A stretch of DNA of 64,000 nucleotides. Source: Centroscyllium fabricii. Lineage: Eukaryota. Numbering within the stretch: the first letter of the stretch is position 1; each line of letters opens with the position of its first letter. The translations under genes were made by a program, and so were the position numbers. The notes under the pieces were generated by a model, which did no database searches, was not told where the DNA came from, and saw only the letters and a program-made list of their open reading frames with translations. This document shows positions 10,621-57,290 of the stretch, piece after piece. The stretch covers positions 32,488,001-32,552,000 of the forward strand of contig JBNRSN020000012.1 of assembly GCA_051313645.2 (NCBI GenBank), read 5' to 3'.

Positions 10621-10632
10621 TTGGCTGTTGTT

Positions 10633-15591: not shown

Positions 15592-15773
15592 TAATGTGGA
15601 GGTGCCGGTGTTGGACTGGGGTGGACAAATGCAAGAAGTCACACAACACCAGATTATAGTCCAACAGTTTTATTTTAAATCACAAGCTTTCGGAGCTTCT
15701 GCCCCTTCTTCAGGTGAAAGAAAGTTAAAATAAAACTGTTGGACTATAATCTGGTGTTGTGTGACTTCTTGCA
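15592..15773 (-). mobile_element. Penelope-like fold-back element, copy A
   Basis: TSD TTAATTTATCCT (15580-15591 / 15774-15785); inverted arms; shared tail CCAGTCCAACACCGGCACCTCCACAT. Confidence 0.75.
15679..15717 (-). ncRNA. Minimal type-I hammerhead ribozyme motif (copy A)
   Basis: UCAC-CUGAAGA-A-GGGGC-AGAA-GCUCC-GAAA-GC-UU-GUGA. Confidence 0.65.
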
Positions 15774-19830: not shown

Positions 19831-19904
19831 AATCTATCTCCGCCTTGAATATTCTCAATGACTGGGGTAGAGAATTCCAAAGATTCACAACCCTGCCCAG
19901 TGAA

Positions 19905-20114
19905 CAAATGCAAGAAGTCACACAACACCAGGTTATAGTCCAACAGTTTTATTTTAAATCACAAACTTTCGGAGCGCTGCTCCTTCCTCAGGTGAAGTGG
20001 GAAGCAGCAGCGCTCCGAAAGCTTGTGATTTAAAATAAAACTGTTGGACTATAATCTGGTGTTGTGTGACTTCTTGCATTTGTCCACCCCAGTCCAACAC
20101 CGGCACCTCCACAT
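19905..20114 (+). mobile_element. Penelope-like fold-back element, copy B
   Basis: TSD CCTGCCCAGTGAA (19892-19904 / 20115-20127); the empty site is visible in the duplicate at ~19332-19344. Confidence 0.8.
19958..19995 (-). ncRNA. Minimal hammerhead ribozyme motif (copy B)
   Basis: UCAC-CUGAGGA-A-GGAGC-AGC-GCUCC-GAAA-GU-UU-GUGA. Confidence 0.55.
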
Positions 20115-22838: not shown

Positions 22839-23045
22839 ATAATGTAGAGGTGCCGGTGTTGGACTGGGGTGGACAAATGCAAGAAGTCACACAACACCAG
22901 ATTATAGTCCAACGGTTTTATTTTAAATCACAAGCTTTCGGAGCTTTTACCCCTTCGTCACCTGACGAAGGGGCAAAAGCTCCGAAAGCTTGTGATTTAA
23001 AATAAAACCGTTGGACTGTAATCTGGTGTTGTGTGACTTCTTGCA
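22839..23045 (-). mobile_element. Penelope-like fold-back element, copy C
   Basis: TSD TTTGTTGAACTT (22827-22838 / 23046-23057); near-perfect palindrome centred at 22961-22962. Confidence 0.8.
22957..22996 (+). ncRNA. Minimal hammerhead ribozyme motif (copy C)
   Basis: GUCAC-CUGACGA-A-GGGGC-AAAA-GCUCC-GAAA-GC-UU-GUGAU: stem I GUCAC/GUGAU, stem II GGGGC/GCUCC, palindromic AAGCUU in place of stem III. Confidence 0.7.
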
Positions 23046-30002: not shown

Positions 30003-30200
30003 TTAAACGTACCATTCATTAAAGTTCGATGAAAGCGTGCTGTGGTTGGATGTGTGGTGGATTGCAGAAGATGTTGGGGACATTGAACTGTTGGTCTGGT
30101 TTTCTGTGGAGGGCGACACGATGGTGGGGGGTGTTGAGGACTCGTAGCCAGAACTTGCCGCAGGAGAAGGCTGTGACCCTTGAGTGGATGCCTCGTGGAC
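30003..30200 (-). CDS. ZIC1: Zic1 coding exon 3 (Ser/Thr-rich C-terminus ending NFNEWYV*)
   Basis: Acceptor ttttgtag|GTCCAC; translates [31 protein letters not shown]...[12 protein letters not shown]. Total CDS 976+164+198 = 1338 nt = 445 aa. This frame is absent from the ORF track. Confidence 0.95.
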
Positions 30201-30561: not shown

Positions 30562-30870
<309 letters not shown>

Positions 30871-31805
30871 TTAGCTCTTTTGCAAATTTACTATTTATAT
30901 AAAACCCTAAAATTACGATTTAAAAAAAAAACACCAAGCAAAGCAGCCATCATTGAAAAACAAACACATTTTTATAATCACCCTACCTCACCAATCTACA
31001 ACCATGCCTTGCAAATCGCAGAAAACGGCAGCATTTTCTAAAATATACGTCCATGCACACAGTTCGGAATGTTACGAAGAATGCATAAGGTAAATTAATA
31101 AATGCTGATTCTTTGCTTAATTTATGATATGGACAGGGACTGGTTACACCATGTTGCAGCTGCCGTGGCGGCCTTACATGTACATATCAATGCTTATTGC
31201 CCTTTTACAACTGCAGTGGTAGGTTGAATAAAGTTGAAAATATGTACCAGCACAGTTGTAGGTTTCTATTTCTTATTTGTAATATTGCCCCTCTCTGATA
31301 CAAGCATTGCTTCCATGCTAGACCAATGCAGCCCTTGGACCGCAAACGCTGGAATAGCGTTTTGAAAAAAAAGACAACGGAAATGGTTATTTGCTAATTC
31401 TATTTACATTTTCGCTTTAATTAAACCGTTTCCAATTCTGTTTATTTAAAGTACGAGTTAGTGGACATCTCATGCAGTGAAGTGAATTGTTGCTAAGTGC
31501 CCCTGGAGGTTTTATAGTCGAGAAAGTGTTAAATCTCGACTTTGCAAAATCTTTACAACTACCTAACCACTATGTGTCATTAACATCGACATTGTTGTCG
31601 AGTGCTATTTTTTTTCGCAAACGCATATTGTGAACCAAGTTTTAACAAGATTATGAGCTCTTGGGAGCCCATAGTATATGTGTTAAGGTATACACACTAT
31701 AAATATATTCACACACACATATAGAAATACGCGCACATATATTTACATGTATACAACGTCTGCGTATCCGAAAGTTGATTTCGCAGTTATACATATACAC
31801 GCACT

Positions 31806-31852: not shown

Positions 31853-32375
31853 ACAAATATGCAAACATAGAATGAGGCAGAGAAAAGGAAGCGATGAACA
31901 AGAATATACTCAATTTGTTGGTTGTGGATTTATAAGGAAACGAGGTAAACCAGCAACAGTGGGTATTTTTCCCCTTTAGATACAATTAAGCTTAGCGATA
32001 ATTTAATTTAAAATAAACTCTTATCACGATGTATTTGCAGGTTAACTATTTTTCCGTCAATATTGGAATAATTAAGCATAGCGTTTAATATTGTCATAAA
32101 ACCGCACAACGTCATACATTTCTATATATATATATTTTAAACAGCGCCCGTAACTCCAGTATAAATAGCACAGAGAGTTAAGCAAAAGCAAAATACTAAA
32201 CATGTTAATTTTATTCTGATATAAATATTTATTTGCACATGCATCTACAACACGTTTACTAAATAAATACTTGGAGCGTCCCGTTTATTTAAAAATGAAA
32301 GTAAGATAGAAACGGTTATAAATGCTTCGCAGTATTTCAGTTTCTCCTTTACACTTTTAAATACAGTCACCATAC

Positions 32376-33351
32376 CTGTGTGAGTTCTTTTGTGGATCTT
32401 GAGATTTTCTGATCTGGCAAAGACCTTGCCGCAGCCAGGGAATGGACAGGGGAATGGTTTCTCGCCAGTGTGGACTCTGATGTGATTTACAAGTTTATAT
32501 TTGGCTTTGAAAGGCTTTCCCTCTCTTGGACACTCTTCCCAGAAGCAGATATGGTTCGACTGCTCTGGTCCCCCAACGTGTTCCACTGTTACGTGAGTAA
32601 CCAGTTCGTGCATGGTGCTAAAAGTTTTGTTGCAGGATTTTTTAGGATTCGTCAACTGTTCGGGCTCGACCCATTTACATATGAGTTCTTGCTTAATGGG
32701 CTGCCTCATATAACGAAAGAAGGCCCCGGCCCCATGGTGGGCCGCCATGTTCATGTTCATGGGGCCATAGCTGTGCAGCTGGGTCGAGGCGTAGTGGTCC
32801 GATCTGGGACTGGTGACCTGGCTGTATTGGTCTGCTCTGCCGTACATGTCCCCAGAAAAGCCTAAGCGCATTTGGCCGTTCATTACATGTGCATTGGGAG
32901 AAGCGTGGGTCGTCGCCTGCTCGTGAAGCCCCGGGAAGAGTAGGTGCCCCGCGGCGTCAGTATGTCCATGGGGTCCCGCAAAGCTGCCCGCGGCCGCCGC
33001 CGAAGCGAACAGGCTGTGGCCGGCGCTGGCCGCCGCCGCGTCCCCGAAGCCCCGGTTGCGAAACAAAAAGTCTCGGGTCGAGTTGAACGCCGCGCTGCTG
33101 TACGAACTCACATGGCCGGGATGGTGACCCAGAGCCGCGGCGTAGCCCGGAGCCTGCGACGTGAAGGCGGTCTGACCCGAGGCCAGATCGTGAGTGCTGG
33201 GGCTGATTTTAAAAGCCCCCATCCCGTCCGCGAAAGGATTGATACCCAGCCCCACTTCTCGGTCGTTGACATCGCCTGTTGAGTGATGTCGGGATGATCC
33301 GAAGGTAGTCACTCCTAGAGTAGGATATTGAGGTCCAGCGTCCAGAAGCAT
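32376..33351 (-). CDS. ZIC1: Zic1 coding exon 1 (N-terminus, ZOC motif, ZF-NC, zinc fingers 1-3)
   Basis: ATG at 33351 gives [10 protein letters not shown]..., then TRDFLFRNR (ZOC), [19 protein letters not shown] and C2H2 fingers to HKRTHT-G. GT donor at 32375-32374, phase 1. Confidence 0.97.
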
Positions 33352-33719
33352 CGTCTGGCGATGGGGGGAGCAGAGAAGGAATAATGATACAAAAAAAAAA
33401 GCAAGCAAAGAATTCACAACGAAACTTGCTTAATATAAAATAGTCTCTGAGTCTGTTTGGAGCACTTGCAAAAACTCCTTATTTTTCTCTCTCTCCCTCT
33501 TCTCTCTTCGGCGTGTGGGAATTTGCTGGAGATTATTATTTTTTTTTTTCCAACCCCCTTCTTGCAAACGCAAATCATGCAATATTGTCTTTTTTTGCGG
33601 TTTATCTTCCTGGGGAGAAACTTTCACCTCATCAGCCGGGCGGTGAGCTGGAGAATGATAGCGGCAATCATTCCTGCAGATAAATGAATTGAAAAGACAA
33701 CACCATCCCCTTGATGAAT

Positions 33720-33900
33720 GGGGAGGATGGGGGGGGGGAGGAGTCACGTGGCGCCCGGCGTCGCTGCCCATTGGCCAGCCCCGCGCTGCCCCGTCGCGCC
33801 CGGCCGCCAATCAGCGGCCCGCGGCGCCCGTCCCGCCCCCTGATTGGCCGGCGCGCCTCATCAATCCCAGGTATTGTGCGCGCCTGACAGTGGCTGCTGA
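33720..33900 (-). promoter_or_regulatory. Zic1 proximal promoter (CpG-rich; E-box, CCAAT boxes, GC box)
   Basis: GC/CpG-rich patch ~370-550 nt upstream of the ATG, with GTCACGTG (33743-33750), CCAAT/ATTGG at 33770, 33807 and 33843, and CCCGCCCC near 33832. Confidence 0.7.
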
Positions 33901-36900
33901 TAAATTATTGTCGAGTCCAGATTTTCTTTCTTTTTCAATCCTCTCTTGTGTTTTTTTAATTTATATATATATATATATAATATGGAAAGAGGAGGAGGAG
34001 GAGGGGGGTGGTGGGGTGGTGGGGGGGGGGGGGGAGAGAGAACTGAAGAAAAACTCTTGTCTTCTTTCGACTTCACAATTCAGTCACCCCTTGTCAGACT
34101 GTTTGAAATTCGTTAGCATGCCACAACTCCAGACGAGGGGGGAAAAAAATAGCGGGCGGCTTCCTTTGTTGTTCACTAGCTTTTTTGATCGCCGGTGAAA
34201 ATTCACTTACCCAGATGAGTGAGCAAATAGAGAAAGAACACTCTTTTGAATTGGGTTAGGAAAAATGCATATGTTTGGATTCAGTACAAACATACAACAC
34301 TTGGTTGTTTTCCAGACGAAACCTCTTGATTAACCTGTCTTTCCCCATGTAAAAAGGCGATTGAAAACATCTTGCTTGGGCCTTTTTTTTTCTTCCATGG
34401 TGACAATGAACTGCTCTATACATATCTATAGGTTCTCAAACAATTGCAAAAAAATAGCTGCAAGTAAGGATTTCACCCCCGAGCCCCCTTTTGGTTTGGT
34501 GCTCTTTTCATTGATTACGAACAAAGAAAGAGGGGAAAAAATGGTTTATGAACACTCAGCTAAGAAAAATGTAGCTCCTTCCCACATCATGTTTTAGTTT
34601 ATACCTTGCCATTCACAGCCCCGAATTTGTTAAAGTCCATCTTCTGTGTTTCTGCAAAGTAATTTAATTATTTACGTGAGGCCAGCGGTTTGCATATTCA
34701 TTAAGTCTAATTATATTCTAGTAATAGAAACGTAAAAAGCCAACAAAGAATCGGAATCGTTCAATTTACCTTTTGTTCGCCACTTCAATGAGCTTCCTTG
34801 AAGCTAAATCTGTGTGTTAAAGTCTTATTTTATAACAAAGAAGCCTTACCGCATCCTTTAATAATTATCTCCGTTAGTAAACCATCACTTTGGAAGGATA
34901 CTGATTTAAATAGTTGTCTTGTTTCCACAACCACCCCCCCCCCCCTCCCGCCCCCTTCCTAATTCAGCTTTTTCTTATCGAAAAACATATTTACACGAAC
35001 ACTTGTCCTCGCTTACTTTTTTTTAACTAACACTTTTTAAAGGTTTTCACATAAAGGTACAACAGGTTAACTTGGAAAAAGGGGTTTTTCGCGCGCGAAG
35101 GTGTTGGCGCAATGTAAACCCCGGCGGTTTAAATGACTGCCTCCCGACCTTCCACGGCAGCGAAGTTCCAGTTATATTTAACAGCAGCGTTATTGTCCGA
35201 GGAAACAAGTTTATCATTAAATGTTAGGAAGCTGAGGGACAATGTACACGCGGGGACCTTGGAGCTGCAAAGAATTGAAAGCGGGCGCCTCTTGAGTGCA
35301 TATTCCCAGTTCACGACAATTTGGGGGCTGTGTGCTTACTTGGCCGCGACAATCCGAGGCGATGTGGATGTTTAATAGAGAATTGCAAATGCAGATTTTA
35401 GGTGCTTTAATGATCTAGAATTGTCTTATGCGAGGGTATCTGTTATAGTTAATCTGACTTTTCCGATGCAATAGATCCCACGCTTGTTGTGCCCATAATG
35501 AAATGTTATTTTTCTGCTTTAGTCGTGTACTTTGCACCCGAAGAATTAAATGGAACGTGATATTGTCTCGCTGAGTGATTACAATGGCTAACATCATAGC
35601 ATTACTTTAAATGATGCAATATACTGAAAACATGGATATTAAAATCACAGCAGTCAAGTAGCAGAAGCTGGAGTAATTTGATTCCAAAAGATTTACTGCT
35701 CATTGAAAGAGTGTGCAAATTCTAAAGGGGCACTTTAAGCGTATGAAAAGTAAACGTTTCCCATAGCATTATCTTTAGGCTGCATCGTCAAATATACAAA
35801 GAAGGGCTGATTTTAAAAGTTGTGGGATGGTAGAAGTTATCAAGTGGGATTTGCGGCGCTCTCCGCAGGAAACGCAGGCTGCTTGAGTTCAAAGCCACAT
35901 GCACCGACGTGACATATAAGCCATTAAAATATCATCCTGACGGCTCATTTCTGCTTCATCATACATTCCCTAACTGCTTCCAGAAACCTTGAAAAGGCGA
36001 AATGAAGAATGACTACCTAGTCAGAGCTACAAAGTAGATTTTTTTTTTTTACTTCGAAGTTACCTGAATTAAAAGATCGAAGACATCTTCTTCAACAGGT
36101 GGAGGACGGTAAGAGAGGCACGCGTATTCAAGTGACTTTTACTAAGCGACTCCTGACCTCTGAATTTCCATCATCTTTCATGTAAATGCAATTGACTAAA
36201 AAGAGAATAGAGATATCAGTCAGATTTTTGTTTCCTCAGAATAGCCCTTGTCAGGGGCCATCATGTTCTAATAAAAGCAAAACTAGGTGCGAGCGGCTCT
36301 GAATTATGCATTTCCATTCGAATGCTCTTGTGTGCACCGATATTATCCCTCCGATTGTTTTCAGTCGATGGATAGCAAAGCATTTAGTTGTTCTGTGAAG
36401 GGAGGTGGGGGGGGGGGACATTTGCCTCGGGGTTGAAGTGTTAGTTTACAAAAGGAATTGTTATTACTTGATTTAAAATTCTGGCTATTTTCATTGAGTC
36501 TAATTTAAAATTTAAATTTGATTTATAACTTGAAACGAAGTTAATCTTTCAATCGTTTATGTGCGACTAACACGTATGAACTGTTGCGCTCGTTAAAGTG
36601 CAGTTTTACTTGTCTGTACACTTGCACCTAGAATTGTTTTATGCGCGAGTGTATGTTTGAATACAGTTTAAGGTCTTCAAAAAGTGCGCTGAGCAACGCG
36701 TGCCCTTTATCCGCGTTCTCCTGTTAAGCAAACGCTTTAGAATATTGAGGTAATGAATTGATGTTTGCGTCCACGCTCCCTTTAAACACATATTTCCATT
36801 AACGGAATGTCATTTAAGTGAATTCAATTGTAATGCAAAAGTTATCTTGCAAATTTGTTCCTGATGACTGACCCCAGCACCGCATATTTAATTGATACCT

Positions 36901-39001
36901 TTTTTTTTAAAGACATGATTTTACGCATTATTTGAAATGCCCTGATGCTAAATGTCACTGTATAGTCAGGATTCTTTGTATACCGTTTCCGTGTGTTAGA
37001 TACCGTTCCGTTTATTATACTTATCCCTATTAAAACTGATTCGAATGAAGTTAGTCAGTTGGCTTTTTGCGCGCAAGGATAGCTCTGAAGTCGCCGACTT
37101 TTGAAATACCATATCGTTTGACCCCTGACCCGTGACCGACCACATGTGCCAGAGCCACACAATGCCACATAATGCATACCTTCCAAAATATTAGCTGTGT
37201 TGAAAGTAAAGTCACTGACCAAAGTTGAAAACAACAGTTCAAAATATAAGTGCTCTTTATTTTGACCAGCAAACGGAATGCATATTTTTCCCGATTATTA
37301 CGTTGATATAAAGCTGTCCTTTAGTTATATCCACGATAGGGGCTCCAGTGGTGAGTGCTTCAGTGATTTGTTTCTTTTTTCTGTGTTTTTTTAAAAACTT
37401 TCCTTTCTTATTATTCATGCAACCGAGATTATGTATGATTTGTACACTTGCACTGGGTAAAAAATACCTCAACAAAGCAAATTCAAATTTCAGCTCGTAT
37501 TCCAGCGATGTCTGGGCAAACTCAAGTATCAACTGTTAGTTAAAATAGCGCCCAAAGCCTCGCCTTTAAACAAATTATTATACTTCCGATTAGGCAGACA
37601 CGCGCGTTTCTAGTATTTTATTTCAAGCAGCCCATGACTTTGAATTAAAATTCCAACTGCCAAAGGTTTGTCTGAGAAACTTTGGGGGGTGGGGGGAAGT
37701 TTTGCAGGTCACCCTTTGCCTTTACCCATTATCCGCCTGCCCGCCTTGAGATCACCGTTAGAGATTTGATTGGTATTTGGGGCGATGTGTTCAGACAGAG
37801 CTATTTCCATTTTCTGAAATTATTTCCAACATATATATACAAAGTAATATTCCCCTGTGAAATTCGCGTTACAATCTTTGTAGGTGTTTTACCCAACGTA
37901 TTGGTGTGTCCCGTGTTTGAAATAAAAGATTTTGACACTAATTCCTCTTTTTTTTTTACTGAATTTATTCACGGGGTGTTTAAAGATTACGCAAAGAGTT
38001 AAAGCCTCCAGATTTCCAAATTTTGGGGAGGACAAACTTTGTATCCTTGTGTTTGGCTTTTTTCCCCCCTCTATTCGGACGTCAGTGGAACTGTAACCCT
38101 AACAGAGGCGATGATGACATTGGAAATACGCGCGTGGTTTTGTTGAAATGTATATTTTTGATTTTTCAAAAAGCTACCGTAAAGTATGTCAGGACACAAA
38201 TGCTTTCACGTTGTACCTGAAAATTCAGCAGGTTTGGGGGATTGGGCCAATCTATCAGCAGCTGTGGTTAAGTTTAAAGATAAGGTTGCAAATCTACAGC
38301 AAGAACTGAAACGTCACAAATATATCCTGCAAATAATATGGTATTGGGCCAAATAAAATTCGAGAAAAAAAACACGTAAAAAACAGAACGGAAAAAATAG
38401 GAGGCCATGCCTACTATGGCGGTTTTGGATCAATCATTTCTTCTGGAAAATATTACGTTCACACAGTAATCATTTATTTTAGTATTACTAGATGCATTCT
38501 ATGCACAAGCAGCCTTTTAACTGTTCAACAGGACAAAGGGTCGCCCCATTAGATGTGGCCAGGTATCCACTGCGACGCTGTGATTCCCCTTCTTGTAGCC
38601 TAAAACCTGACTGGAAGAACTTGAAACTAAAAATATAAGCGAACCGTGTCATTTTGACAATCTTGTTATTTCTTAAAAGAACATCTGTATCCTTAAAGCA
38701 CACGCCCAACAATTTCCAACTTTGCTTCATTGGAGTCGCTTGGTCTATCTGTCTAGTTATCTGGCTATTTAGTTATCTGGCTATTTATTTATCTGCAACA
38801 TTGTACCAAAAAAAGTTACTACGCCTGCACTTTTTTTTAGGTTGTCAAACATCCCACGGTGTTGCTGGCGCTGTCTGAGGTATGTGTAATTTAATGGAAT
38901 GGACGTATTTTGGAATAAAGTGCAGACTCTTACAAAATTACACTCACGGTGAAAGATGACGATGCACTGGTTATTTTGCAGGTCTGTGTATTTTTTTAAC
39001 T

Positions 39002-39217
39002 NNNNNNNNNNNNNNNNNNNNNNNNNNNNNNNNNNNNNNNNNNNNNNNNNNNNNNNNNNNNNNNNNNNNNNNNNNNNNNNNNNNNNNNNNNNNNNNNNNN
39101 NNNNNNNNNNNNNNNNNNNNNNNNNNNNNNNNNNNNNNNNNNNNNNNNNNNNNNNNNNNNNNNNNNNNNNNNNNNNNNNNNNNNNNNNNNNNNNNNNNNN
39201 NNNNNNNNNNNNNNNNN
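39002..39217. other. Assembly gap (216 N) in the Zic1-Zic4 intergenic region
   Basis: Run of N; the right flank is CA-rich. Confidence 0.99.
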
Positions 39218-42200
39218 CTCACATACACACACAGCATTATGCTTCAAAAATAGAGTTGCTCGTCACAGTTAAATTTGGAATTTCTTGCCATCGACCTAAT
39301 TTAAAACCGTGACTGTGTACAAGTTAAAACATAGGCATCGCCAGTTCCAATACAGGTGTGACGTTTCACATCCTCCAATGATTAACTTGCAGCTAAATGC
39401 GAATTAGAAATTACACTCACTGAAATCCAGGCTTGCATGTGACTGACTCAATTGTTCATCATATTCAAATTCCTGTAATTATATTTAAAACCACTTTTTA
39501 TACTAAACGGATGTAATGGGCTGTTTCAGGTCTTACCATGGCATTATTGCACTCTCAATAATATACCAAGGAAGTAAAAGTTGTAATTTGCTCGCTTGGT
39601 AAGTTATTGGCGCAAAAGTTTATATTATCTTCTGAATAAATATGAATACGCTGAGGTATGTGTAACCACAATCGTTGCCTGACGAGACTATCAGTATAAA
39701 AAAAACACTTACCTATGGAATTAGGTTCAAACATAAACATTTAAAAAGGCACCGGGACATCTCTTAACTCATGGTTTTCAACCTCCAGTCTGTATCGTTG
39801 TCACTTACAGTGTTTTATGTGGTCGCATACTGTACAAATTAGTGACAGTACATCCCACAAGCAGCTGTTTGCTGTAGTTCAATGTTCTCTGCGTGGCAGT
39901 ACTAGAATTAATATTTGACGACCATCGCATTGTAACAACAACCTTCGACCCGGTGTGCCTGGACTGCCACATTATTCTATGACACTTGCTTTATTTAATT
40001 CATTTACGGACGATTTGAGTGTAATGTAAGTTGGAAGCGTATTTGGATCACTTTAAGGCGGAGGCTTTGATCTCTTTGATGGGGTTCTACCCTCTTATAA
40101 GTATCGGGGTTACAGGTATCAACATAGCAGTGTTTAATCACAGCCACATCCACTCGGACCGTATCAGAAAAGCTTTACAAACTGGTTTAACAACGATCGA
40201 GAGGTAATGTACAGAAGTTAGCATGAATATATCTGTCGGTTTACTGTCGCCAAAGCTAGTTGCTTGTGAAAAGCTGACAGGAGGAATGACCATAACTTTG
40301 AAAGTGGATTTCTTTTCCTCACAGTCGTTCTGTATTTCCACAGTGAGAAGACAACTGCATAACTTGTGGACCCATTTAAAACTAACGCTATCAGAGCATT
40401 AATATTGTCCGGCAATACCAATAAGGATATCGCTCAAATGTGTAGCCTTCACAAGTATGTTTTTTTTGTAAATTGGCCTGTTGTTGTAAAATATTAAAAA
40501 ATATTCGCGAAGATAAGTGCTCTGCATTCGTTACACGAATACAACGGCGAGTTTAAAGGTGCTTCTTGTTAGAGTAACCATTCTGCATTGCTACAATCGT
40601 GTGCATATTATATAGAATGGATGGTGCAAGCTGTCTTGTTTCTAGTTTCTTTCCCTAGCACTTTAGTGTTCCAGCCATACACTGGTTATAGGGGACACAG
40701 ACCTCGATGGCTATCTCCGCGATCAGCGTGGCAGGTAAATGAACGAGTCATATGGTGTCTGTTTCTGAACTGGAATTGTGTTTGAAATCTCGCAATATCC
40801 TATATTATTGAGGTACTATGTGCAGCATGTGTACGTTGCGGCGATACTAAAGGTGTAACTAGTGACCTTAAATGAACTATAACTAGAGGTGTATATAGGG
40901 CCCCCAGTTTTCTCCACCATGGTGATAACTTGTTATCACACCCTAACTTCCTTCGATGGGAGAAAGTGTAAAGCATAGTGAAACAAATGTTTGCTTCCGT
41001 CTAGTACCTCATGCCTGTAGAATACAACTATACTGCCTGGATACAGGTTTCCTAGCCTTTTGTTATTTAAATTGTTATTACAAATATATAATAGCATGTT
41101 TTTAAAAAAAAAATTAAGCTGACGTTTGCAATATTGCACGCGTGCAAAGCAGGTATGATGTCGTTACTGAAGCATTGTCCAGGCAAATCCAAACAATGCA
41201 ATCAATAGGTGCTGCTTGAAGGATACTTTCAATAATGTCATTAACCAGCCAACAGTCTAACGGTTATTGGTACATAAAATTAACATCGTCAGTTACTAGG
41301 GGGAGGGGTCTCTATGCGGCATCACAAATAGGGCAAGTACAGAATAAACATTTTTTTTAAAGGTAATAAATCGGCAATACAGTAAAGGTAAAGCGTGACC
41401 CTGATTTCAGTTCTTTAACTTGCACCACACTGATTATGCTAATTAACCGCAGTGTATCATTCAGTATATTATAGTCACCACGTTTCTTTAATCTGGGATA
41501 GTGTTCTTGTTTAATTATTGTTTTTTTTAATAACAACTGTTTGCATATTTTTGCACATAAACATGCTACACAACTTTTTTCCTGAATCAAAATTCTTTAA
41601 CTAAACAGTTATACGAATGCATCTTGATGAAGGCAGAATGCAGCGAATTCTAGCAACATATATGATTACTAATGTAAATCACACACAGCTTGAGTGTGTG
41701 GAGTCAATCCTAGCAATTCGTAAACTAGCCCATTCTATTTTGCATTTTTGTATATTTTATTGCAGATTTCATGTTCCTCGATTTTATTTTAAGTTCTTTT
41801 TCGGATGATTGAATGGGGAAAATCATTGCCCTGCCCCAGAAATGTAATTGGATCATAGTATTTGTTGACAACTTTCTCCGATTAAACCTTATGATTTAAA
41901 CTACAAACATGCACAGACCCGTACACATACAACCAAGGCAAATTAATCTGTAGTAAAGGTGAAGTATTTCCTTGTTCGTTACGCTAAACGTTTGGTGGGA
42001 GGGTTGAGAGGTACAAGTTTAACGCATGGAATCTTGGGAGTCTAAATAACGAGGCTTCGAGCTGTTTTTTCAAATCGAGTTTGTGATTAAAAAGGGGCTT
42101 ATGAAAAGATTGCACTAAAACAACGCCAGAGTTAAGCTTCAGTAAAAAGAAAGGGTTTTTCCCGAAACTGCTTTATCGCAACGCGTTTCTCGAAAACAAA

Positions 42201-42808
42201 TTTCGCGAGAAAATAATTTTATTTGGAATTTACACTGCTCGGTTGCAATATAATCAAAGCGAATACCACGCCTATTTGTTGCATTTCGAATAGTTTTTTT
42301 TTTCCGCTGGGTTTCACTCCGCACTAGGGCTTAATCAAGGTTCCTTAGCATCTCTGTTGGACTTCTGTAGTGTTGATCCTGTAGTCTGCAAACCTGGAAT
42401 TCTGCAATAATTTCCTGTTTATAATGGGGCGAAGGAAGCTGTGAACTGCCCGCCATAAGAGGGGTATAACGTCTGCCTCGTGTTATTCTGTGACATCTTA
42501 ATCACATAGAGAAATATCCTGTCGATATCAAAAGCAGTAGCAACACGCTAATTTCTGGAGCATTTAGTTTGGGGCACAATGTAAACCATATTTCGAGCAA
42601 AAAAAAAAAACTTTCTGCACTTTATCAGCGTTTACAATCTTGGCAACTAAATTAAACGATAGGCTGGAAGGATCAATTACGTAAAATGGAAAGGTAAACC
42701 AAAGACCCCTCACCTTAACTGTATCTTTAGATAGTAGTGTACACATGATGGTACCGTGCATATTCTATACTTAACCTAAAGTACAAAACTCTCCATCTGG
42801 TTAAATAA

Positions 42809-42984
42809 TTGCAAGAAGTCACACAACACCAGATTATAGTCCAACAGTTTTATTTTAAATCACAAGCTTTCGGAGCGACGCTCCGAAAGCTTGTGATTTA
42901 AAATAAAACTGTTGGACTATAATCTGGTGTTGTGTGACTTCTTGCAATTGTCCACCCCAGTCCAACACCGGCACCTCCACATCA
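42809..42984 (+). mobile_element. Penelope-like fold-back element, copy D (perfect 71-bp arms)
   Basis: TSD TGGTTAAATAA (42798-42808 / 42985-42995); arms 42807-42877 and 42879-42949 with a 1-nt spacer. Confidence 0.82.
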
Positions 42985-45900
42985 TGGTTAAATAACGTTG
43001 ACAATGAAGGATCACCAACGTGATCGCAATGTATATTTCAATTGAAGAATATTGTTTTCTCAAAAGTCTATTGTAATGAAATAGTCTTCCTTTCTAAGTC
43101 TTATATTTCAACATTAAATAATAAGCAAAAGTCAGAGTCCATGTAACGTTATGTGTAATAAACGTATACTTTGTATAGTATATTGCACTCACCCACAAGC
43201 TGTAAATTGGTTATTTTACAATACGATTGCTTAGGAGTTTATATTACACTATGTTTACGTTTTGGGAAACATTTATATATTGCAACGTGCGTAAGCACTG
43301 TGTCCTTTTCTAGGGACTGTCACTTGCGACTGAGAAATTGCTCGAAAGACAACGGACTAGCTGACACCAAGGTGGGGGCTTAACCAGGTAATGGAGCAGC
43401 ACATGTACAAATCCCAGTCTAAGCCTGCAGTGTGAAGCCCAGGAGGCTGAAATATAAACGTGTCAACACTCACAGATCCACATTGCAGTCTTCTCTGTTA
43501 CACGTTAGAGCTTTGGGTGAAAAAAATAACTCCAAATCGTGCTGGTTATGAACTCAGCTTTTGGTTCCGAGTGATGGCCTGAGACTGGGCTCGACATTAT
43601 GGCAGATGTAAATAATATGGGCAGAAACAGAAAGGAAAATGCCAGCAATTGAAACACTTATTGCAGATAATGAGAAAAAATGCAGCTTTTGATGCAACGT
43701 TAATCTAGCCTTCGTTGTACAGAATTAATGTTCTAAAGCCTTTACTACCTACATTTGAAATGACTGCTCAATAGTGAATATGAGTTAATTACATTTTTTT
43801 GCATTATCTGAATGGCGTGTCTTCAGCTAATTTACGTTTTGGGGTTTAGTGTTTACAAATTCACCGAGCCCTTCATTATATTTAACTTGCTACGACTGCC
43901 GAGAATTGTTTTGAACAACTGTGTGATCTTCTTTCCCACCGCCATTCCCCTTCCCCTCCCCCACGTGTGCTCATCTGATCATACTTTTCTTTTAACCATT
44001 TTTCTTTCTTGTTCGGAGTGTTTGCCTGTCTCTGGATATGTTCCTCGCACGTATATAGATAGCATTGCTTACGTCTTTCTGCTTCTTATTCTTATCCCAC
44101 CTTAAATTTGCACTTTGTCTCTCTTCACCCCCCCCCCCCACCACCCCCCTCCCCATCTCATAAATTTCTACCCATGCTATTGCTCCCACCTCCCTTTCAA
44201 AAACCTACCTTTTTTTCTCTCTCTTGTATTGTAGGTCTGCTGTGCGCTAGACTGCGGGCTTCAAGCCCTGTCGCAGACCAGCTTAGGGACGGCGGCCTAA
44301 ATCCACGGAAATCGCAGCACCAGCTTTCCGTTCCCCCTTTAGCTTTCTTGCTGCACAACCTAAAGGGCTACAGCATACAGAATTTGAGTTAGTAGCCCGC
44401 TTTGTCAATCTCCTCCTCCCTGAAAAAATAAAGTCTAAACTACTTTTGCAAGATGGTTAGACAGACGTATGTGCTCAGGTCCAGTTAAACCGACGATGTG
44501 CACTGAGGACAAGTTACACTTGCAGACATAAGACTGTATACTGGGGGCGAGGGGTTGAGGCGAGCAGTACGTTCTGGTGTCAGGAGAAAAATATGAAAAC
44601 GTGAGGCTGATATAACGAGCGGAGTTCGGTCTAAACCGCCTCTCATTCATGTGTGTGCGGAGACGCAGACGAGCCACTGGCAATCTATCATTGCGCTATC
44701 TTTCTCTATGCCTCCCGATAGTCCACTACAGTTTACTTTTTTTCTCCCCCAGCGATGCGAGTTTCCTTCGTGTTTATTATAGATTCTGATAACACGGCGT
44801 CGGTTCGCCTTCACGAACTGTGTCTTGGAATTGGAAACACGTTTTTTGAGAAAAAAAACTGCAATGAACGTTTGCATCCATGTGATGCAGGCAATAATTC
44901 AAATCTCTTGGCAATCTGTCGAAACAAAGTATTGAAACAAACAACAACAACAAAACTTGCCAAGCCTAAGAAAATAAAAGTATCTCCCCGCCCCATACCA
45001 CACCCCCTCCGCCAGAACCAAAACTTCCCCAGGATTTTGGCTTAACACAATTACCAACCCGGGACTGCAGGCAAGGGGAACTCAGTAAGTTCGTGCATGC
45101 TGAGCAAAGTTTCAGACTCAAGTCTCGGGGAGAGAGAGAGAGAGAAAAAAAGTTAACAGATGCCTTTGACTGGGGATCTCTTTGATGGTCTGCGCCGCTA
45201 AGAACAACCAGCCGTCTGATTTTGTCAAAAAAACATAACACGCCTGGAAGTCGGCTGGTGTCAGGAGAGATAAAAATCACGAACTAATTTCCCGCCTGAG
45301 CATAACAGGCCATAACCCCATTTTCAGTTCAGTGCTGCCCGTGACTTCCTTCTCTCACACAAAAAAAAACCTAAATTCTTGCATAAGCCGCAGGAGCTGG
45401 TGTGGATCAATAAGGGGGTGTGCGAGATATTACTGAGTAGATGGCGGTGTTTGACCGGCTCGATGGAAGGATAAACTTTCCAACGCGTCTAACTGTATAT
45501 TTGTTCCTGAAACAAACCATTGCAACACCTCATAAATGATCAAATCCTGCTGCAATACACTTTTTCGCTGTCCTCTTCAGCCTGACAGACGGTTCCATAT
45601 CAACACCATCATGCAAGCCTATTAATAAGCAGCGGATCTAATTTAATTTCATAATGTAAGGAAACTTTAAAAATATATAGATAGATAAATAATTAAGGAG
45701 TAACCTTCACCAGAACCGTTAAATCCTGTCCCAATCCATCGTTGGTTGATGGATCTTATTGCCTTTCCCTCCCCTCAACACTCTAAGAAATGAATTACAA
45801 AATGATCAAATGTCTAACGTAGAAGGTTAAAAAAACCCACTAAACATTCATTCTTTGCGGGTAAAAAAAAATCCCGCTCAGATCAACTTAAAAAATCTGC

Positions 45901-46124
45901 ATTGTTGTTATTTAAGGAAAAGTGGCCTTCAGCAGCAGAAAATCTGTTAAAACGAGTTTACAAAACAGTTACAGGGTTTTTGCTAATAAAATTAGTCTGT
46001 TGCAAGAAACCAACAAAACAAAACCCACATCCTGCAGCCAAAAAAGACCTTTCTGTGTTCTCTTCAACACCCCGCTCCCCCCACCCCCGGTGTAATACGC
46101 ATGTGCCCTGACTGGGGTCCGTAA

Positions 46125-46165
46125 CTGGAGCTGTCAATCATCGCAAACTGACCAATGAGATTGCT
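46125..46165 (+). promoter_or_regulatory. Candidate Zic4 promoter module: PBX-MEIS/PKNOX decamer plus CCAAT
   Basis: CTGTCAATCA (46131-46140, reverse complement TGATTGACAG) followed by CCAAT (46152-46156), ~200 nt upstream of the Zic4 ATG. Confidence 0.5.
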
Positions 46166-46356
46166 TGTTGCTCGCGGAGCTCGACGGGCTGCAAAGCTGT
46201 TCATGAATCTCAATTCAGTTTCTCAATGCGTCCTGCTGCTGCTATCCGTCTGCACTCTCTACACCGAATGGCTATCCACGTTGGCAAAGAGCGAGTTTCT
46301 AAAGTTCGGTAACTTAAAAAAAAGTTTCTTTTATTATTTTTCTGCTGTCAGGCATT

Positions 46357-47518
46357 ATGAGCATGGATGCTTTGGGGAGTCCGATGATGGACCCATCATT
46401 CGCCAAAAGAAATCCAGCGCTGAGATTAGTAGATTTGGCAGGAGCTCACCACCATCATCATCACCATCCCCCTCAGAGCATGACAGGCTTCCCGGGGCTC
46501 AGCGGCCATCCCCACTCAATGGCACACACGCACCCTGGGGAGAGTGCTGGAGAACCCCGCCTGGGGCCGAGTCCATTCGGGCCTGAACACATGGGGCACC
46601 CTGCAGCCGCCGCTGCGCTTAAACTCAGCCCAACCCATCCCCACCACCATCACCACCATCATCATCACCATCATATGGCAGGCCACGCTGAGGTTGTCGC
46701 CAATCCAACGGCAGCTTTTGGCCCAGCGCAGGCAGCAGCAGCAGTCAGTTACTCAGTCTCGCACTCCCACGCCAGCTACACTGCCCAGGCTATCTCGGCA
46801 GGTAGAGACTTCCTCATCCGCAGAGATCTGACATCCTCAGTCATGCCTGGGATCACTGATCAATATCCTGGCACAAGTTCTCACCACGGAATGTTTGTAT
46901 CAACAACAGGTAGCTACCCCGGACACCATGGTCACCCCGAGGCTGGAAGCCACTCTTTATTCCCTGGACTCCATGATCAGGCTCCCCTTTCAGCCCCAAC
47001 TGGACACCATCTGAACGGACAGTTAAGACTGGGGCTACCTGGAGACATGTACGCCAGGTCTGAGCACTACAGCCAAGTGGCAAGTTCCAGGAGTGACCCA
47101 TTCGCCTCTTCCCCTCTGCATGGCTACGGTGGCATGAATATTAACATGAACTTAACTGCCCACCACGGTCCAGGTGCATTCTTTCGCTACATGAGACAAC
47201 CCATCAAGCAGGAACTGATTTGCAAGTGGACTGAACCGGACCCTGTCACTAAAAAGCCATGCTCCAAAACTTTTAGCACGATGCACGAACTGGTTACTCA
47301 CGTAACAGTGGAACACGTTGGGGGACCAGAGCAGTCGAACCATATCTGCTTCTGGGAAGAGTGTCCAAGAGAGGGAAAGGCTTTCAAAGCCAAATATAAA
47401 CTTGTAAATCACATCAGAGTCCACACTGGCGAGAAACCATTCCCCTGTCCATTCCCTGGCTGCGGCAAGGTCTTTGCCAGATCAGAAAATCTCAAGATCC
47501 ACAAAAGAACTCACACAG
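46357..47518 (+). CDS. ZIC4: Zic4 coding exon 1 (His tracts, ZOC-like motif, ZF-NC, zinc fingers 1-3)
   Basis: [37 protein letters not shown]..., [37 protein letters not shown], fingers to HKRTHT-G|gt at 47519. Head-to-head position relative to Zic1 matches the known Zic1-Zic4 pair. Confidence 0.93.
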
Positions 47519-50500
47519 GTCAGTATTTTCGAAGGATCATTAATCCATTTTTATTTCATTTTCGGTGTTCAAAAGTTAATAAAATAATGTTTGCGGTTTA
47601 ATACCGGTGGGAATTCAATCCAAATGCTCAGCGAAGCTGGGCTTTATGTGACTTGGAAAATAGCCTATTTTACAGCATTTCTATAAATCACACAGCTCTG
47701 AGAACTTTGTAATGTTGTGGATAATACATAATTAATAATGTTTTAGCTGTAAACGCTCTTCCGGTTACAGATAATAAAGCTGCCCTGATTCAATTTCTAC
47801 CGATATTAAACGCCATTAGATTTCTTCCTTTCAGTTGCAGTTAAAGGTTGTTACAAAACATGACACTCAGATCTCTGAGAACACTGTTTTGACGTTAAGT
47901 AGGGTCCAGTGGAAGCTTTTTGCCGATGATTCAGAATTATTAAAGAGTAGAATACATTGTCTATTTTGTTCTGTTGTTTTTTTGTTAGGATCCACACACA
48001 TAACAGTATTATTTTAAATCATTGTATGTTGTATCTGTACTGCAAGTGTGTATGTGCTCAAGGTAATCTACTGGCCGTATTATTTTAAAAAAAATCTGAA
48101 CATGTTATAGGCCTAAGACTAATGAAAACAAATGTGCAGGCCTACGTTCCGAAAAATGTCATTTGCAGAACCATTTGTGAAACTGGGACATGTGTCAAAA
48201 ACATCTGCTGGCTCCACTTAGCAGCGAGTAAACTGAGTCGCTCGAAGCTTACTCGAAGCTGCATTTGAACTTCCCAAGCCAGAGTAATTTAGAAGTAATG
48301 AAACCGCACTTATAAAATTTTCACACTCCCTGGAATAGCCCCTATTAATTGTTTTTTTTTACAGCAGCGGTTCGATACTTGCTCCCTGTATTGTAGTCTT
48401 GCCTTAAGCGCGGCCTTGCTCGGCTACAAGACAGTGGAGGGGAAATTGCAGATCGGAAAAATTCCCCACCGAGTTACTCCTTAAACGTTGGACATTTTTT
48501 CAATGTTATGATCCATTCTGTGTTAGCAAAACGTGTTTTCTTGGTTGGTTTCCTTTGCGGCTGGTGTATAGTTGGCGGAGGGGAGGATGGGGCGGGGGGG
48601 GGGGGGGGGGAGATTCTCCGTGAAATCAGCAGACACAATTTAACCCGAGGCACTTTGCTTCCCCTGAAACTTGTAAACTCTTCCCAAACTGTCCGCTTGC
48701 GATCTTTTCTTGGTTCTACCTCAATTATCTGCTGTAGTTATTCGCTCTATAATTATGCCATGTTGGTTGACGTTTTGTTGGAATTGAAGTGCATTTTCAA
48801 TGTACATCGGATCACGAGGTGGTTTGTGGGCCTTTTTTATAGGTACAATCCCGGTCACATTTTGAATTCAAAACATAATTTTCCCTTTTACAGTATAAAC
48901 TAAACATTGTCGATGGCGCCAATAAATTGAAGCGTATGTGTAAACAAAACAAAATACTTAGAGCACTGTTGCAGCAGTGATAATGTGTAAAATGGATATT
49001 GCAAAAAAAAAAAATTCAGGTAATGATATTACGTTTAGTACTTTTAAATAGTCTAACGTATAATACATAAAATGCATGTGTTGTGGGTGCAGAAACTGAC
49101 TGTGCGCATCTGACACTTGATAGCATTGTATTGTGCTCGCCTAAACAAACTTTCCCAGCACTTCATCGACTTCAGTTCAGCAGTTTAGTGTGCTGAGCAC
49201 TTAATTTACAAGAGCAATTCATTCCACCGGCCGCATTGCTATTTAGTTAAAAATAATGTAGTATCCAATAAAGGAGCTGTGTGTTTAGTAGCGTCGAATG
49301 CTCGCACATTCCCATATTTCAGTTAAATAGCGATCTCCATATGTTGCAATTAATCACTGTAATTGTGATAAATATTGCATTTCTCTTTCAGTTTAAAATT
49401 GCAAACACTAATGTTACTAAATTCTTAAATAAAAAATAGCAAGTATAGTAATTCTATTAACAAAGTAATTATCTTGTAAAATATTCATGCCGTTTGATTG
49501 GCTTCAGTCCTTTATAGGCAAATTTTATTGAATTGAAATCCCGAACCTTTTACATTATTTATTTCAACAAGCATGAAAAGATCGCCTCTGGGTAAACAGA
49601 GGCTTCAGTAGTTTTGTCACCTCGGTTATAAAATATTACCGTATAAAGTCTAAATCTAGAATTAAACATGGGTATTAAAAAGATTGATTAGAACGCGCAA
49701 ACAGCTTGTAGAGTTTATCACCAGGTAGCCATTTTTTTCTAAGTTATCCAATGCAAAGTTTAAATTCAATTTCAGGGAGGCTTTTTTTCGACTTATTTAT
49801 TTTCGCCAGGCCTAAGCTAACTGGTGAGATGACACTTAACAAGGATTGGTCGCAGTTAATCTTACATTACTCACTCCTTTATACACAGCATTAATAGTGA
49901 AGAAGGAGAAATGTGTAGCCAGGAGGAGTTTAGAGCTCTCGGGAATTGGCAGAGCAGACTTCATGCTCGTAGTGTCGGACGCTCCAGACACGGCACAATA
50001 ACAGTGTTTATGAGTCTGGGCTTCCCCATGGGTCCACTAACTTACTACTAGCTTGTACTACACTAATATCGTTGATTGGTCGTCTCAACCTAGCAAGTGA
50101 AGGTCAAATTATTCTAACGGCTTTCTGAACGTTTGGCTAATTACGGTGTAATATTAAATCGACATTTTGAGAGTTCGGTGAAGGGTCTCTGTTGTTAAAG
50201 CACGTAGCTGTGCACTGTAGCCGCATTGTTTTACATTTACCACAGATAGTTTTTTTTTAATCTTAGATTTAATGATGTTGCAATGTTTTATTAGAATGGT
50301 CATAATTAAAGTTTTTAAAAAAAATGTTTGTTATTCCCCACCCCTGCAGTTTCAGAAATCCATTGTAAGCCACTGTGAGCAAAGTGACTGCTGTTTAGGC
50401 CTGGGCGTTAAACATTGCTTTAACTTTACCAACAAGGATAAACTATTACTGCACACCGTATCCGCAAGAACGTGCCTGCAACATATCACTGCAATGTGAA

Positions 50501-50655: not shown

Positions 50656-51092
50656 GAGAAAAACCCTTCAAATGCGAGTTTGAAGGCTGTGACAGACGTT
50701 TTGCTAACAGCAGCGACAGGAAAAAGCACTCTCATGTGCATACAAGTGACAAGCCCTATAACTGCAAAATAAGAGGCTGTGATAAATCGTACACGCACCC
50801 CAGTTCCCTTCGTAAGCACATGAAGGTCCACTGCAAATCTCCTCCTCCCAGCTCGGGCTACGAGTCCTCCACCCCTTCGCTGGTATCTCCTTCTTCGGAC
50901 TCGGGCCGGGACCCCCCGGCTTCAGCCTCCCAGCTTGACCCCATCTCATCTTCCCACGCAGCTAACCTGAGCGAATGGTATGTGTGTCAAAGCACAGGAA
51001 CAAGTGGTATTCCAACACCTCCAAGCAATTCATCTTCACCTGGACCAGGAGAGCACGCTTACAGAAACTCTGACCCCAGAACTATTCACTAA
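50656..51092 (+). CDS. ZIC4: Zic4 coding exon 2 (zinc fingers 4-5 and C-terminus)
   Basis: Acceptor ttttag|GA GAA AAA; ...[49 protein letters not shown]...[10 protein letters not shown]...TAA. Total CDS 1162+437 = 1599 nt = 532 aa. Confidence 0.94.
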
Positions 51093-56000: not shown

Positions 56001-57190
56001 GCACTATACAAGAAGTGCTGGGCATTAGATTGCGCCTGACACCACTAAAAAGGAATCTGTTAAAAAGCATTCAACCTGAAACAGATTCTTTCAGCCGTTT
56101 TTTTCACAAAACCTTGTTTAACAATATAAGCTAGTTTTAATTAAACTATTCATAGCTCTATCCCTGTCGCTTTTAAAACTGGCCACAATTCCGTCCTGTT
56201 AGTTTCCATGTTAAAGTCCACGCTAGGTTAGGCCTGAAGAAACAATGGGCATCTAACTTTTAATCGTGAATTCTTTCGGCTGGGACTATTACAGCATCGC
56301 GTCGCAAATCAATCGTTTCCAAATCTGTGTAAATTGTCAGTGAAATAAGTTCGCAGCTTACTCCTTTCGTAAATAGCTGGTTCTCGACGTGACAGACAAG
56401 TTGCAATTTGCAAGAAAGCAATGTTCTAATGAATTCATTACCATGATTACAGAATTTCGTCCAGTATAACCCTCCCCCAAGTCCTGGAAGCATTTTCTTA
56501 TCTTGCATGGACGTTTGGGGGCCTTAAATTGAAACCTGGGTCTCAGACAAATAATTCATTATTGTCAATCAAGTCGAAAGGAATTATTGGCAGCTGCATT
56601 AAGTACATAGTGGTTCTTAATAAAATATCATAATGGATACAGAAAATCACATCGAATTGCTGTCAAAAGTGCGAGATATTTATTTTAATCGACAGCCTTA
56701 CACACTCTTGCTGCATACTGATGACTTTTAAGGTCAGCAAGTTTTTGCAATAGTTACTCAGACAGAGTTTGCTGACAGCACGTCTCTTAATGTAGATGTT
56801 AAATGACTGGGGGAGACATTTCCTCGTATAACTAAAGCTGAAACAAAAAATTAGGGCTTGTATTGCATTATATTATCTTTGTATGAATTGCAACACGTAG
56901 CTGACAACTTCAAGATGTAATCTCACTCTATTAAAATATTGTTTGATTGCATCGTTTAACTCAAATTGTTTTGAGTCATGTGGTATCACGTCGAGTGAGC
57001 TGCTTGCCCCAATCAATAAATAGAAAACTAATGGAGCTTTTATATGCACATCTTCTAAAAAGTGTTGCATGCACAAATTTTCTTTTGGCTGGGAACAGTT
57101 ACACGCCAGTGAAATAAATGGCATGTGAGGTACCCAGACGCTGGCAAGGCATTCAGCGACACGATTTTGTTAACAGTCGGGTTTTATATC

Positions 57191-57290
57191 CATAATGTGG
57201 AGGTGCCGGTGTTGGACTGGGGTGGACAAATGCAAGAAGTCACACAACACCAGATTATAGTCCAACGGTTTTATTTTAAATCACAAGGAA
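57191..57290 (-). mobile_element. Penelope-like element, copy E (single arm, truncated at the ribozyme 3' edge)
   Basis: TSD GGGTTTTATATC (57179-57190 / 57291-57302); same tail as copies A-D. Confidence 0.78.

What the first reader, a model, noticed from the sequence alone, without database searches (positions are those of the whole stretch)
32374..47520. Zic1 and Zic4 share a 256-nt, 254/256-identical zinc-finger tract: gene conversion between ancient inverted paralogs
Seen: 32374-32629 (Zic1, minus) is the reverse complement of 47265-47520 (Zic4) with two mismatches only, 32614/47280 (synonymous ACC/ACG) and 32514/47380 (Pro/Ala). The tract runs from KTFSTMHEL to the exon-1 GT donor and stops there. 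Protein constraint cannot explain it: the nearby 19 codons [19 protein letters not shown] are amino-acid-identical yet differ at 12 synonymous sites, and exon 2 (ZF4-5) also differs at many synonymous sites. Established: the Zic1/4 and Zic2/5 head-to-head pairs come from a tandem duplication older than the vertebrate genome duplications, so synonymous sites should be saturated. Inference: recent or recurrent ectopic conversion homogenises ZF1(part)-ZF3 between the two genes. I cannot tell from here whether this has been reported for this lineage.
Basis: partly seen in the sequence, partly recalled or inferred. Interest (0 to 1): 0.85.

Follow-up and report, generated by a model that had tools for sequence, protein, structure and literature searches.

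The report
Shark Zic1–Zic4 zinc-finger gene conversion
In this shark, two neighbouring brain-development genes that split before vertebrates arose share one almost letter-perfect 256-base stretch, most likely because one gene's DNA was copied onto the other long after the split.

Summary
Observation confirmed: 32374-32629(-) in Zic1 and 47265-47520(+) in Zic4 match at 254/256. The window is elasmobranch, and both genes are true Zic1 and Zic4 orthologs outside the tract. Inside the tract 80 of 81 comparable codons are identical; outside, 73 of 186 (P=2e-23), which is saturation level. The tract fills 256 of the 274 nt of the longest gap-free homology block; the other blocks are 99, 116 and 48 nt. 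Ectopic gene conversion between inverted paralogs 14.6 kb apart is the best reading (0.85).

Qualifications: 'recent' is loose, at 0.3-75 million generations. 'Recurrent' is not shown: ray Zic1 carries tract substitutions that ray Zic4 lacks. The donor is only weakly Zic4. The protein tract was already near-identical in sharks and amniotes, so the event is probably neutral. Ortholog DNA and raw reads were unavailable, so ultraconservation and a mis-filled assembly remain formally untested. Ten literature searches found no report for Zic genes, but the same pattern is described for Capitella Dlx. A new case of a known process, notable for the paralogs' age.

The parts
32374..32629 (-). Shared tract, Zic1 copy: second half of ZF1 through ZF3, plus the exon-1 GT donor
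   Evidence: 254/256; zf_ZIC at aa 216-262, zf-C2H2_15 at 269-298, zf-C2H2 at 300-324
47265..47520 (+). Shared tract, Zic4 copy; carries the private Pro39Ala change at 47380
   Evidence: Pro in 15 of 15 other elasmobranch Zic4 proteins seen
32376..33351 (-). Zic1 coding exon 1 (ATG to phase-1 donor)
   Evidence: spliced product 445 aa, 98.7% identical to Heptranchias, Leucoraja and Mobula Zic1
30670..30833 (-). Zic1 exon 2 (ZF4-5), synonymous sites saturated against Zic4
30003..30200 (-). Zic1 exon 3 (C-terminus to stop)
46357..47518 (+). Zic4 coding exon 1 (first in-frame ATG to phase-1 donor)
   Evidence: spliced product 532 aa, 95-97% identical to full-length shark and ray Zic4
50656..51092 (+). 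Zic4 exon 2 (ZF4-5 and C-terminus)
32671..32727 (-). Internal control: ZF-NC and start of ZF1 in Zic1, 19 identical residues, 45/57 nt identical to Zic4 47173-47229
32630..32670 (-). 5' heterology barrier: ZF1 inter-cysteine loop, 2 residues longer in Zic1 than in Zic4, 6 of 12 aligned residues identical
39002..39217 (.). 216-N scaffold gap between the two genes (the only gap in the window)

Best explanation
The tract is an ectopic (non-allelic) gene-conversion patch. A double-strand break or stalled fork in one gene's exon 1 was repaired using the inverted paralog 14.6 kb away as template, without crossover. Copying ran through the one long stretch of gap-free homology and stopped at the unrelated introns on one side and at the ZF1 loop indel on the other. 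The protein there was already the same, so the patch changed only synonymous sites and could fix neutrally. Patches extending into subclass-specific residues would lack homology or be purged. Two substitutions remain: one Pro-to-Ala in Zic4 that arose afterwards or is a polymorphism, and one synonymous change near the 5' edge that may predate the last event. SHOWN: near-identity, sharp ends, saturation elsewhere, orthology, block lengths. INFERRED: the repair mechanism, neutrality, direction (weakly Zic4 to Zic1) and date (probably after the shark-ray split, unless the synonymous rate is below about 2e-10 per year).
For: 80/81 identical codons in the tract vs 73/186 outside; saturation expectation about 31/81. 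pS 0.019 in the tract vs about 1 in ZF-NC, ZF4 and ZF5. Gap-free homology blocks are 99, 274, 116 and 48 nt, and the tract occupies the 274-nt block. Outside the tract the genes group with Zic1 (11 of 11, support 0.88) and Zic4 (14 of 14, 0.97), with subclass B at 1.0, so this is not a recent whole-gene duplication or a chimera. Subclass A/B-diagnostic columns: 0 of 84 in the tract, 4 of 98 in flanking finger columns. GC3 of the Zic1 tract (40/82) is lower than the rest of Zic1 (225/346, P=0.008) and matches Zic4 (220/431, P=0.72). No Rfam family and no unusual fold, z=0.49. Precedent: Capitella Dlx, an inverted pair with a 150-bp homeobox tract (PMC3199776, passages).
Against: No ortholog DNA and no reads were available, so the diagnostic within-species clustering was not tested. 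There is an N gap between the genes, so the assembly is not gapless. Batoid Zic1 and Zic4 differ at 1-2 tract residues, so the process is not general or continuous. The direction test is weak: tract LLR is +9.6 for Zic4 usage, but held-out Zic1 blocks ranged from -15.9 to +11.9, with 1 of 28 overlapping blocks above the tract value. GC3 is not raised, so there is no signature of GC-biased conversion. The protein tree of the tract is an unresolved star.
Confidence: 0.85

Rival explanations
1. Assembly artefact: one copy was mis-filled or over-polished with reads from the other gene, so the two copies are really two alleles of one gene (probably Zic4).
For: The window has a 216-N gap between the genes. 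The paralog lies within mate-pair range (14.6 kb). The tract composition is Zic4-like. The two mismatches could be heterozygous sites.
Against: A mis-fill needs exact shared anchors at both ends. With saturated synonymous sites the chance of a 3' anchor of 25 nt or more is 0.0005-0.005, and the longest exact match elsewhere is 18 nt. Collapse or polishing can only raise an identity that was already high. Both ends fall at biologically meaningful homology limits, and both reading frames and donors are intact.
Confidence: 0.07
2. One very old conversion (stem gnathostome or stem chondrichthyan), preserved since by nucleotide-level constraint (an ultraconserved coding element, exonic enhancer or splice element) plus the slow shark clock.
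For: Sharks have a very low mutation rate, 7e-10 per generation (PMC10587355, passages). The protein tract is identical in shark, bird, lizard, marsupial and mouse Zic1 and in many Zic4. At 1e-10 substitutions per site per year, one or no difference after 450 My has P=0.05.
Against: At 2e-10 per year or faster, P is 0.0008 or less for 450 My and 0.03 or less for 250 My. There is no RNA family or structure signal. A search for ZIC1/ZIC4 with ultraconserved/synonymous terms listed 4 of 5 matching papers, none about this by title or abstract start. This rival still needs a conversion, so it changes only the date.
Confidence: 0.07
3. Protein constraint plus shared codon bias or chance keeps the codons the same.
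For: ZF2-ZF3 is the most conserved part of the family, with 0 subclass-diagnostic columns.
Against: Equally invariant protein segments show 5/17 and 27/52 identical codons. The tract has no codon bias (GC3 0.49). Even at 70% codon identity P=1e-11, and simulated identity is 80-84%.
Confidence: 0.01

Closest known systems
Capitella teleta Dlxa/Dlxb conversion (PMC3199776; passages read)
   Same: Old, closely linked, inverted pair of developmental transcription factors; nucleotide identity confined to the DNA-binding domain; remainder of the genes diverged.
   Different: Annelid homeobox pair, tail-to-tail; the tract is 150 bp and runs into the intron. Here the pair is head-to-head, predates the vertebrate genome duplications, and the 256-nt tract stops at the donor.
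Mosaic concerted evolution of BMP8A/B, DDX19A/B and TUBG1/2 in mammals (PMC2720389; passages and 5 text supplements searched)
   Same: Segment-limited conversion in linked vertebrate gene pairs lasting over 100 My; BMP8A/B are inverted.
   Different: Those tracts span exons plus introns, as the screen required two exons and an intron, so a one-exon tract like this would be missed. The duplicates are mammalian in age, and recurrence was shown there by trees. ZIC is not mentioned in the text or the 5 supplements searched.
Hexapod engrailed/invected concerted evolution (Peel et al. 2006; title seen in a reference list; paper not held; content recalled)
   Same: Ancient linked transcription-factor pair with homogenised DNA-binding domain (recalled).
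   Different: Insect homeobox genes, with recurrence shown across lineages (recalled); here only one genome was seen at DNA level.
ZXDA/ZXDB conversion (PMC2724270; passages read)
   Same: [quoted passage not shown]
   Different: The genes are X-linked ZXDA and ZXDB, not Zic genes, so this is not a prior report of the finding.

Membership tests
Ectopic gene conversion tract | Local identity between paralogs far above the flanks at unconstrained (synonymous) sites | tested here: met
   80/81 vs 73/186 codons, P=2e-23; pS 0.019 vs about 1
Ectopic gene conversion tract | Flanks keep orthologous ancestry (not a new duplication or crossover chimera) | tested here: met
   Tree of 320 non-tract columns from 50 proteins; 98.7% identity to shark and ray Zic1 over the full length
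Ectopic gene conversion tract | Tract lies within uninterrupted homology and ends at heterology | tested here: met
   256 of a 274-nt block; other blocks 99, 116, 48 nt; ends at GT donor and ZF1 loop
Ectopic gene conversion tract | Paralogs cluster within species, not by orthology, in a DNA tree of the tract | not testable with these tools
   No eukaryotic DNA collection; plasmid search empty; protein tree of the tract is an unresolved star
Ectopic gene conversion tract | Both copies physically real (read support) | not testable with these tools
   No reads; only indirect anchor simulation
Ectopic gene conversion tract | Identifiable donor (non-reciprocal transfer) | tested here: inconclusive
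   GC3 and codon LLR favour Zic4, but held-out Zic1 blocks overlap the value
Recurrent concerted evolution | Lineage-specific substitutions shared by both paralogs in several lineages | tested here: inconclusive
   Shared derived residue in 4 of 6 amphibian pairs (P34A twice, I27V twice; permutation P=0.033), 0 of 3 chondrichthyan, 0 of 5 amniote, 0 of 6 ray-finned pairs. The unhomogenised Zic2/5 control gave P=0.043, so the test is unreliable
Recurrent concerted evolution | Raised GC from GC-biased conversion (common, not obligatory) | tested here: not met
   Tract GC3 0.49 vs 0.65 (Zic1 rest) and 0.51 (Zic4 rest)
Ultraconserved coding element | Near-identity at DNA level between distant orthologs | not testable with these tools
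   Only ortholog proteins were available
Zic1 (subclass A) / Zic4 (subclass B) gene pair | Divergent tandem pair, five C2H2 fingers, orthology | tested here: met
   arrangement as in PMC7403390

The most novel reading that the evidence does not exclude
Zic1 and Zic4 have exchanged their ZF1-ZF3 exon segment repeatedly for more than 500 million years: most recently in this shark, and episodically in amphibians and amniotes. Ray-finned fishes (4-7 residue differences in 6 of 6 pairs) and the sister pair Zic2/Zic5 (5-9 differences in 19 of 19 pairs) escaped. The protein-level identity of Zic1 and Zic4 fingers in sharks and amniotes would then reflect copying as well as constraint. This would be among the longest-lived conversion relationships known between vertebrate developmental paralogs.
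Probability: 0.3. Interest if true: 0.75.

Novelty: new member of a known kind. Interest (0 to 1): 0.5.

Why it matters
If real, it shows that paralogs separated before the vertebrate genome duplications, and saturated everywhere else, can still recombine through a single ~270-nt island of homology. That puts a natural lower bound on the homology needed and shows that 'escape from conversion' need not be permanent. Practically, zinc-finger-based Zic trees and dates are distorted, and probes, guides or short reads from this segment cannot tell shark Zic1 from Zic4. The same pairing resolved with a crossover would invert the 14.6-kb promoter interval and swap the 3' halves of the genes, which is a testable rearrangement. 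It probably has no effect on the proteins, which limits its biological weight.

Tried and rejected
Literature: ten searches. The only paper holding zic1, zic4 and 'gene conversion' together is a medaka genome paper, where the terms are unrelated. 'ZIC' in PMC2724270 means ZXDA/B. The chick Zic paper notes high zinc-finger homology but gave no identity figure in the passages read.

Not readable here, known to me only from reference lists or recall: Aruga 2006 Genomics, the 2018 Zic book chapters, Keller and Chitnis 2007, Peel 2006. A prior mention there is not excluded.

Sequence tests that gave nothing: Rfam 0 hits in 64 kb; tract fold z=0.49; blastn of the tract against plasmids, no match. 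The protein tree of the tract was unresolved. That call timed out before the non-tract tree, which was rebuilt with FastTree.

Direction test: simulation from pooled codon usage looked decisive (0 of 5000 under Zic1 usage), but the held-out-block control undercut it, so I treat it as weak. My prediction that Spea Zic4 would share Spea Zic1's P34S failed.

Inversion by crossover was rejected: each N-terminus is joined to its own C-terminus. One search had an off-by-one Zic4 splice junction, so its exon-2 numbers are void and one search replaces them. The genome-contig scan was not used (prokaryotic collection).
Full report
OBSERVATION. The segments 32374-32629 (minus) and 47265-47520 (plus) are reverse complements at 254 of 256 positions, differing at 32514/47380 and 32614/47280. 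Identity ends at the GT donor and at 32630/47264. Exact runs are 140, 99 and 15 nt, and the longest exact match elsewhere between the two loci is 18 nt. The arms are 14.6 kb apart, with a 216-N gap between them.

THE GENES. The minus-strand gene has three coding exons giving 445 aa, 98.7% identical to Heptranchias, Leucoraja and Mobula Zic1. The plus-strand gene has two exons giving 532 aa, 95-97% identical to full-length shark and ray Zic4. The window is therefore elasmobranch. A tree of 320 non-tract columns from 50 proteins (48 named, chosen by me for taxon spread, plus the two window proteins) places them in Zic1 (11 of 11, support 0.88) and Zic4 (14 of 14, 0.97), with subclass B at 1.0. 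Each N-terminus is joined to its own C-terminus, so no crossover inversion has occurred. PMC7403390 (passages) and PMC6175831 (passages) state that the tandem duplication preceded the vertebrate genome duplications. The tract covers the second half of ZF1 through ZF3.

MORE THAN CONSTRAINT. Among aligned identical residues with more than one codon, 80 of 81 share the codon inside the tract. Outside, 73 of 186 do (N-terminus 31/87, ZF-NC 5/17, loop 2/6, ZF4-5 27/52, C-terminus 8/24). Fisher P is 1.9e-23, and the saturation expectation is about 31 of 81. Synonymous differences per site are 1/52.7 in the tract against 12/10.2, 18/17.3 and 10/10.8 in ZF-NC, ZF4 and ZF5. In three sets of 100,000 simulations with identical protein, the longest exact run never passed 71 nt and identity was 80-84%. 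There is no Rfam match in the window and no unusual fold (z=0.49).

WHY THIS SEGMENT. The gap-free homology blocks around the finger domain measure 99, 274, 116 and 48 nt; the tract fills the longest. It is bounded by unrelated introns and by the ZF1 loop, where Zic1 is two residues longer. Subclass-diagnostic columns number 0 of 84 inside the tract and 4 of 98 in the flanking finger columns. Inference: homologous repair from the inverted neighbour is possible only here, and it is silent at the protein level, so it can drift to fixation. The dependence of conversion on a minimum homology length is stated in PMC3199776 (at least 50 bp). A figure of about 200 bp for vertebrates is my recall and comes from no call.

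DIRECTION AND DATE. GC3 of the tract (40/82) differs from the rest of Zic1 (225/346, P=0.008) but not from Zic4 (220/431, P=0.72). The codon likelihood ratio favours Zic4 by 9.6. However, held-out Zic1 blocks ranged from -15.9 to +11.9 and Zic4 blocks from -15.6 to +9.7, so Zic4 as donor is only a lean. At 7e-10 mutations per generation (PMC10587355, passages), one synonymous difference gives 13.6 million generations (95% range 0.3-75 million). An age of 250 My has P=0.03 at 2e-10 per year and 0.26 at 1e-10 (the yearly rates are assumed values). 'Recent' means only 'far younger than the duplication'.

OTHER SPECIES (proteins only). All 15 elasmobranch Zic4 proteins seen, of a 32-member cluster, match the window's Zic1 tract exactly, so Ala39 is private to the window's Zic4. 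Heptranchias Zic1 also matches. Against continuity: Leucoraja Zic1 has P34S and Mobula/Hypanus Zic1 has I27V and P34S, absent from their Zic4.

Tract differences within pairs were: chondrichthyan Zic1/4 1, 1, 2; amniote 1, 0, 1, 0, 0; amphibian 1, 0, 5, 3, 3, 2; ray-finned 4, 6, 6, 6, 7, 6; chondrichthyan Zic2/5 5-9 in 19 pairs. Before that count I dropped 2 duplicate rows and 4 cross-species rows, and added the Spea, Pleurodeles and Huso pairs. The 2 non-chondrichthyan Zic2/5 pairs were also left out. The Fundulus and Coregonus pairs may be congeners rather than one species, Scleropages has two Zic1 copies of which one was used, and the two Hymenochirus proteins are listed on contigs of different length.

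Four of 6 amphibian pairs share a derived residue (P34A in Ranitomeya and Hymenochirus; I27V in Lissotriton and Pleurodeles; permutation P=0.033). These sites are hypervariable, the pairs are not independent, Spea went against the prediction, and the unhomogenised Zic2/5 control gave P=0.043. This is a hint only. The protein tree of the tract is a star: identity at protein level is widespread in sharks and amniotes and cannot date or localise conversion.

RIVALS. An assembly mis-fill (0.07) is possible in a gapped assembly and would explain the Zic4-like composition. But it needs exact anchors at both ends, and a 25-nt 3' anchor has probability 0.0005-0.005 under saturation. An ancient conversion preserved by nucleotide constraint (0.07) could not be tested without ortholog DNA; it alters only the date. 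Protein constraint alone (0.01) is excluded by the controls.

KNOWN CASES AND NOVELTY. The closest documented case is Capitella Dlx (PMC3199776, passages). Mammalian mosaic pairs lasting over 100 My are in PMC2720389, which does not mention ZIC in its text or in 5 supplements held as text, and whose screen required two exons plus an intron. Ten searches (listings and abstract starts, with passages of 9 papers read) found no report for Zic genes. The primary Zic phylogeny papers and book chapters were not read here, and figures and bioRxiv supplements could not be seen, so a prior mention is not excluded.

VERDICT. A real and statistically extreme feature, best read as ectopic gene conversion (0.85). 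It is a new member of a known kind, notable for the age of the paralogs and probably neutral. Recurrence across vertebrates is open (0.3) and is quickly testable with public genomes. Interest 0.5.

Noticed in passing
window 42807-42949; relatives at about 15583-15784, 19900-20114, 22840-23051, 57187-57287: A perfect 71-bp-arm palindrome with a 1-nt spacer lies between the two genes. It belongs to a dispersed family of ~200-bp elements with long inverted arms and variable centres (MITE-like by anatomy; not classified). A cruciform here could seed breaks near the Zic pair, which is speculation.
   Followed up: partly
window 47380 (Zic4 codon for tract residue 39): Pro-to-Ala in ZF2 is absent from 15 of 15 other elasmobranch Zic4 seen, but Ala is usual at this site in teleost Zic5. 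It may be a private substitution, a polymorphism or a base error.
   Followed up: partly
window 39002-39217: A 216-N scaffold gap in the intergenic spacer; the orientation of the two contigs agrees with the known head-to-head arrangement.
   Followed up: partly
window 1-21000: Dense retrotransposon remains: reverse transcriptase 8320-9285(-), endonuclease 6721-7149(-), zinc-knuckle ORF 9508-10794(-), with several 85-93% identical copies in both orientations.
   Followed up: no
window 31084-31115 and 34744-34775: A 32-nt, 78% inverted match between Zic1 intron 1 and the Zic1 upstream region; possibly chance or a duplicated small regulatory motif.
   Followed up: no
protein P0104 (Callorhinchus milii): A divergent subclass-B Zic, sister to Zic5, with 14 tract differences; possibly a chondrichthyan Zic6-like gene.
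   Followed up: no
proteins P0073-P0154 vs teleost Zic5: Chondrichthyan Zic5 has Pro39 and Val47 like Zic1/2/4, whereas teleost Zic5 has Ala39 and Ile47. From residue 37 on, several ray and shark Zic2/Zic5 pairs are identical in protein, so a shorter Zic2/5 tract over ZF2-3 is worth a DNA check.
   Followed up: partly
window 46635-46674 and 46450-46468: Two histidine runs in the Zic4 N-terminus, the longer encoded by a CAC/CAT tandem repeat.
   Followed up: no
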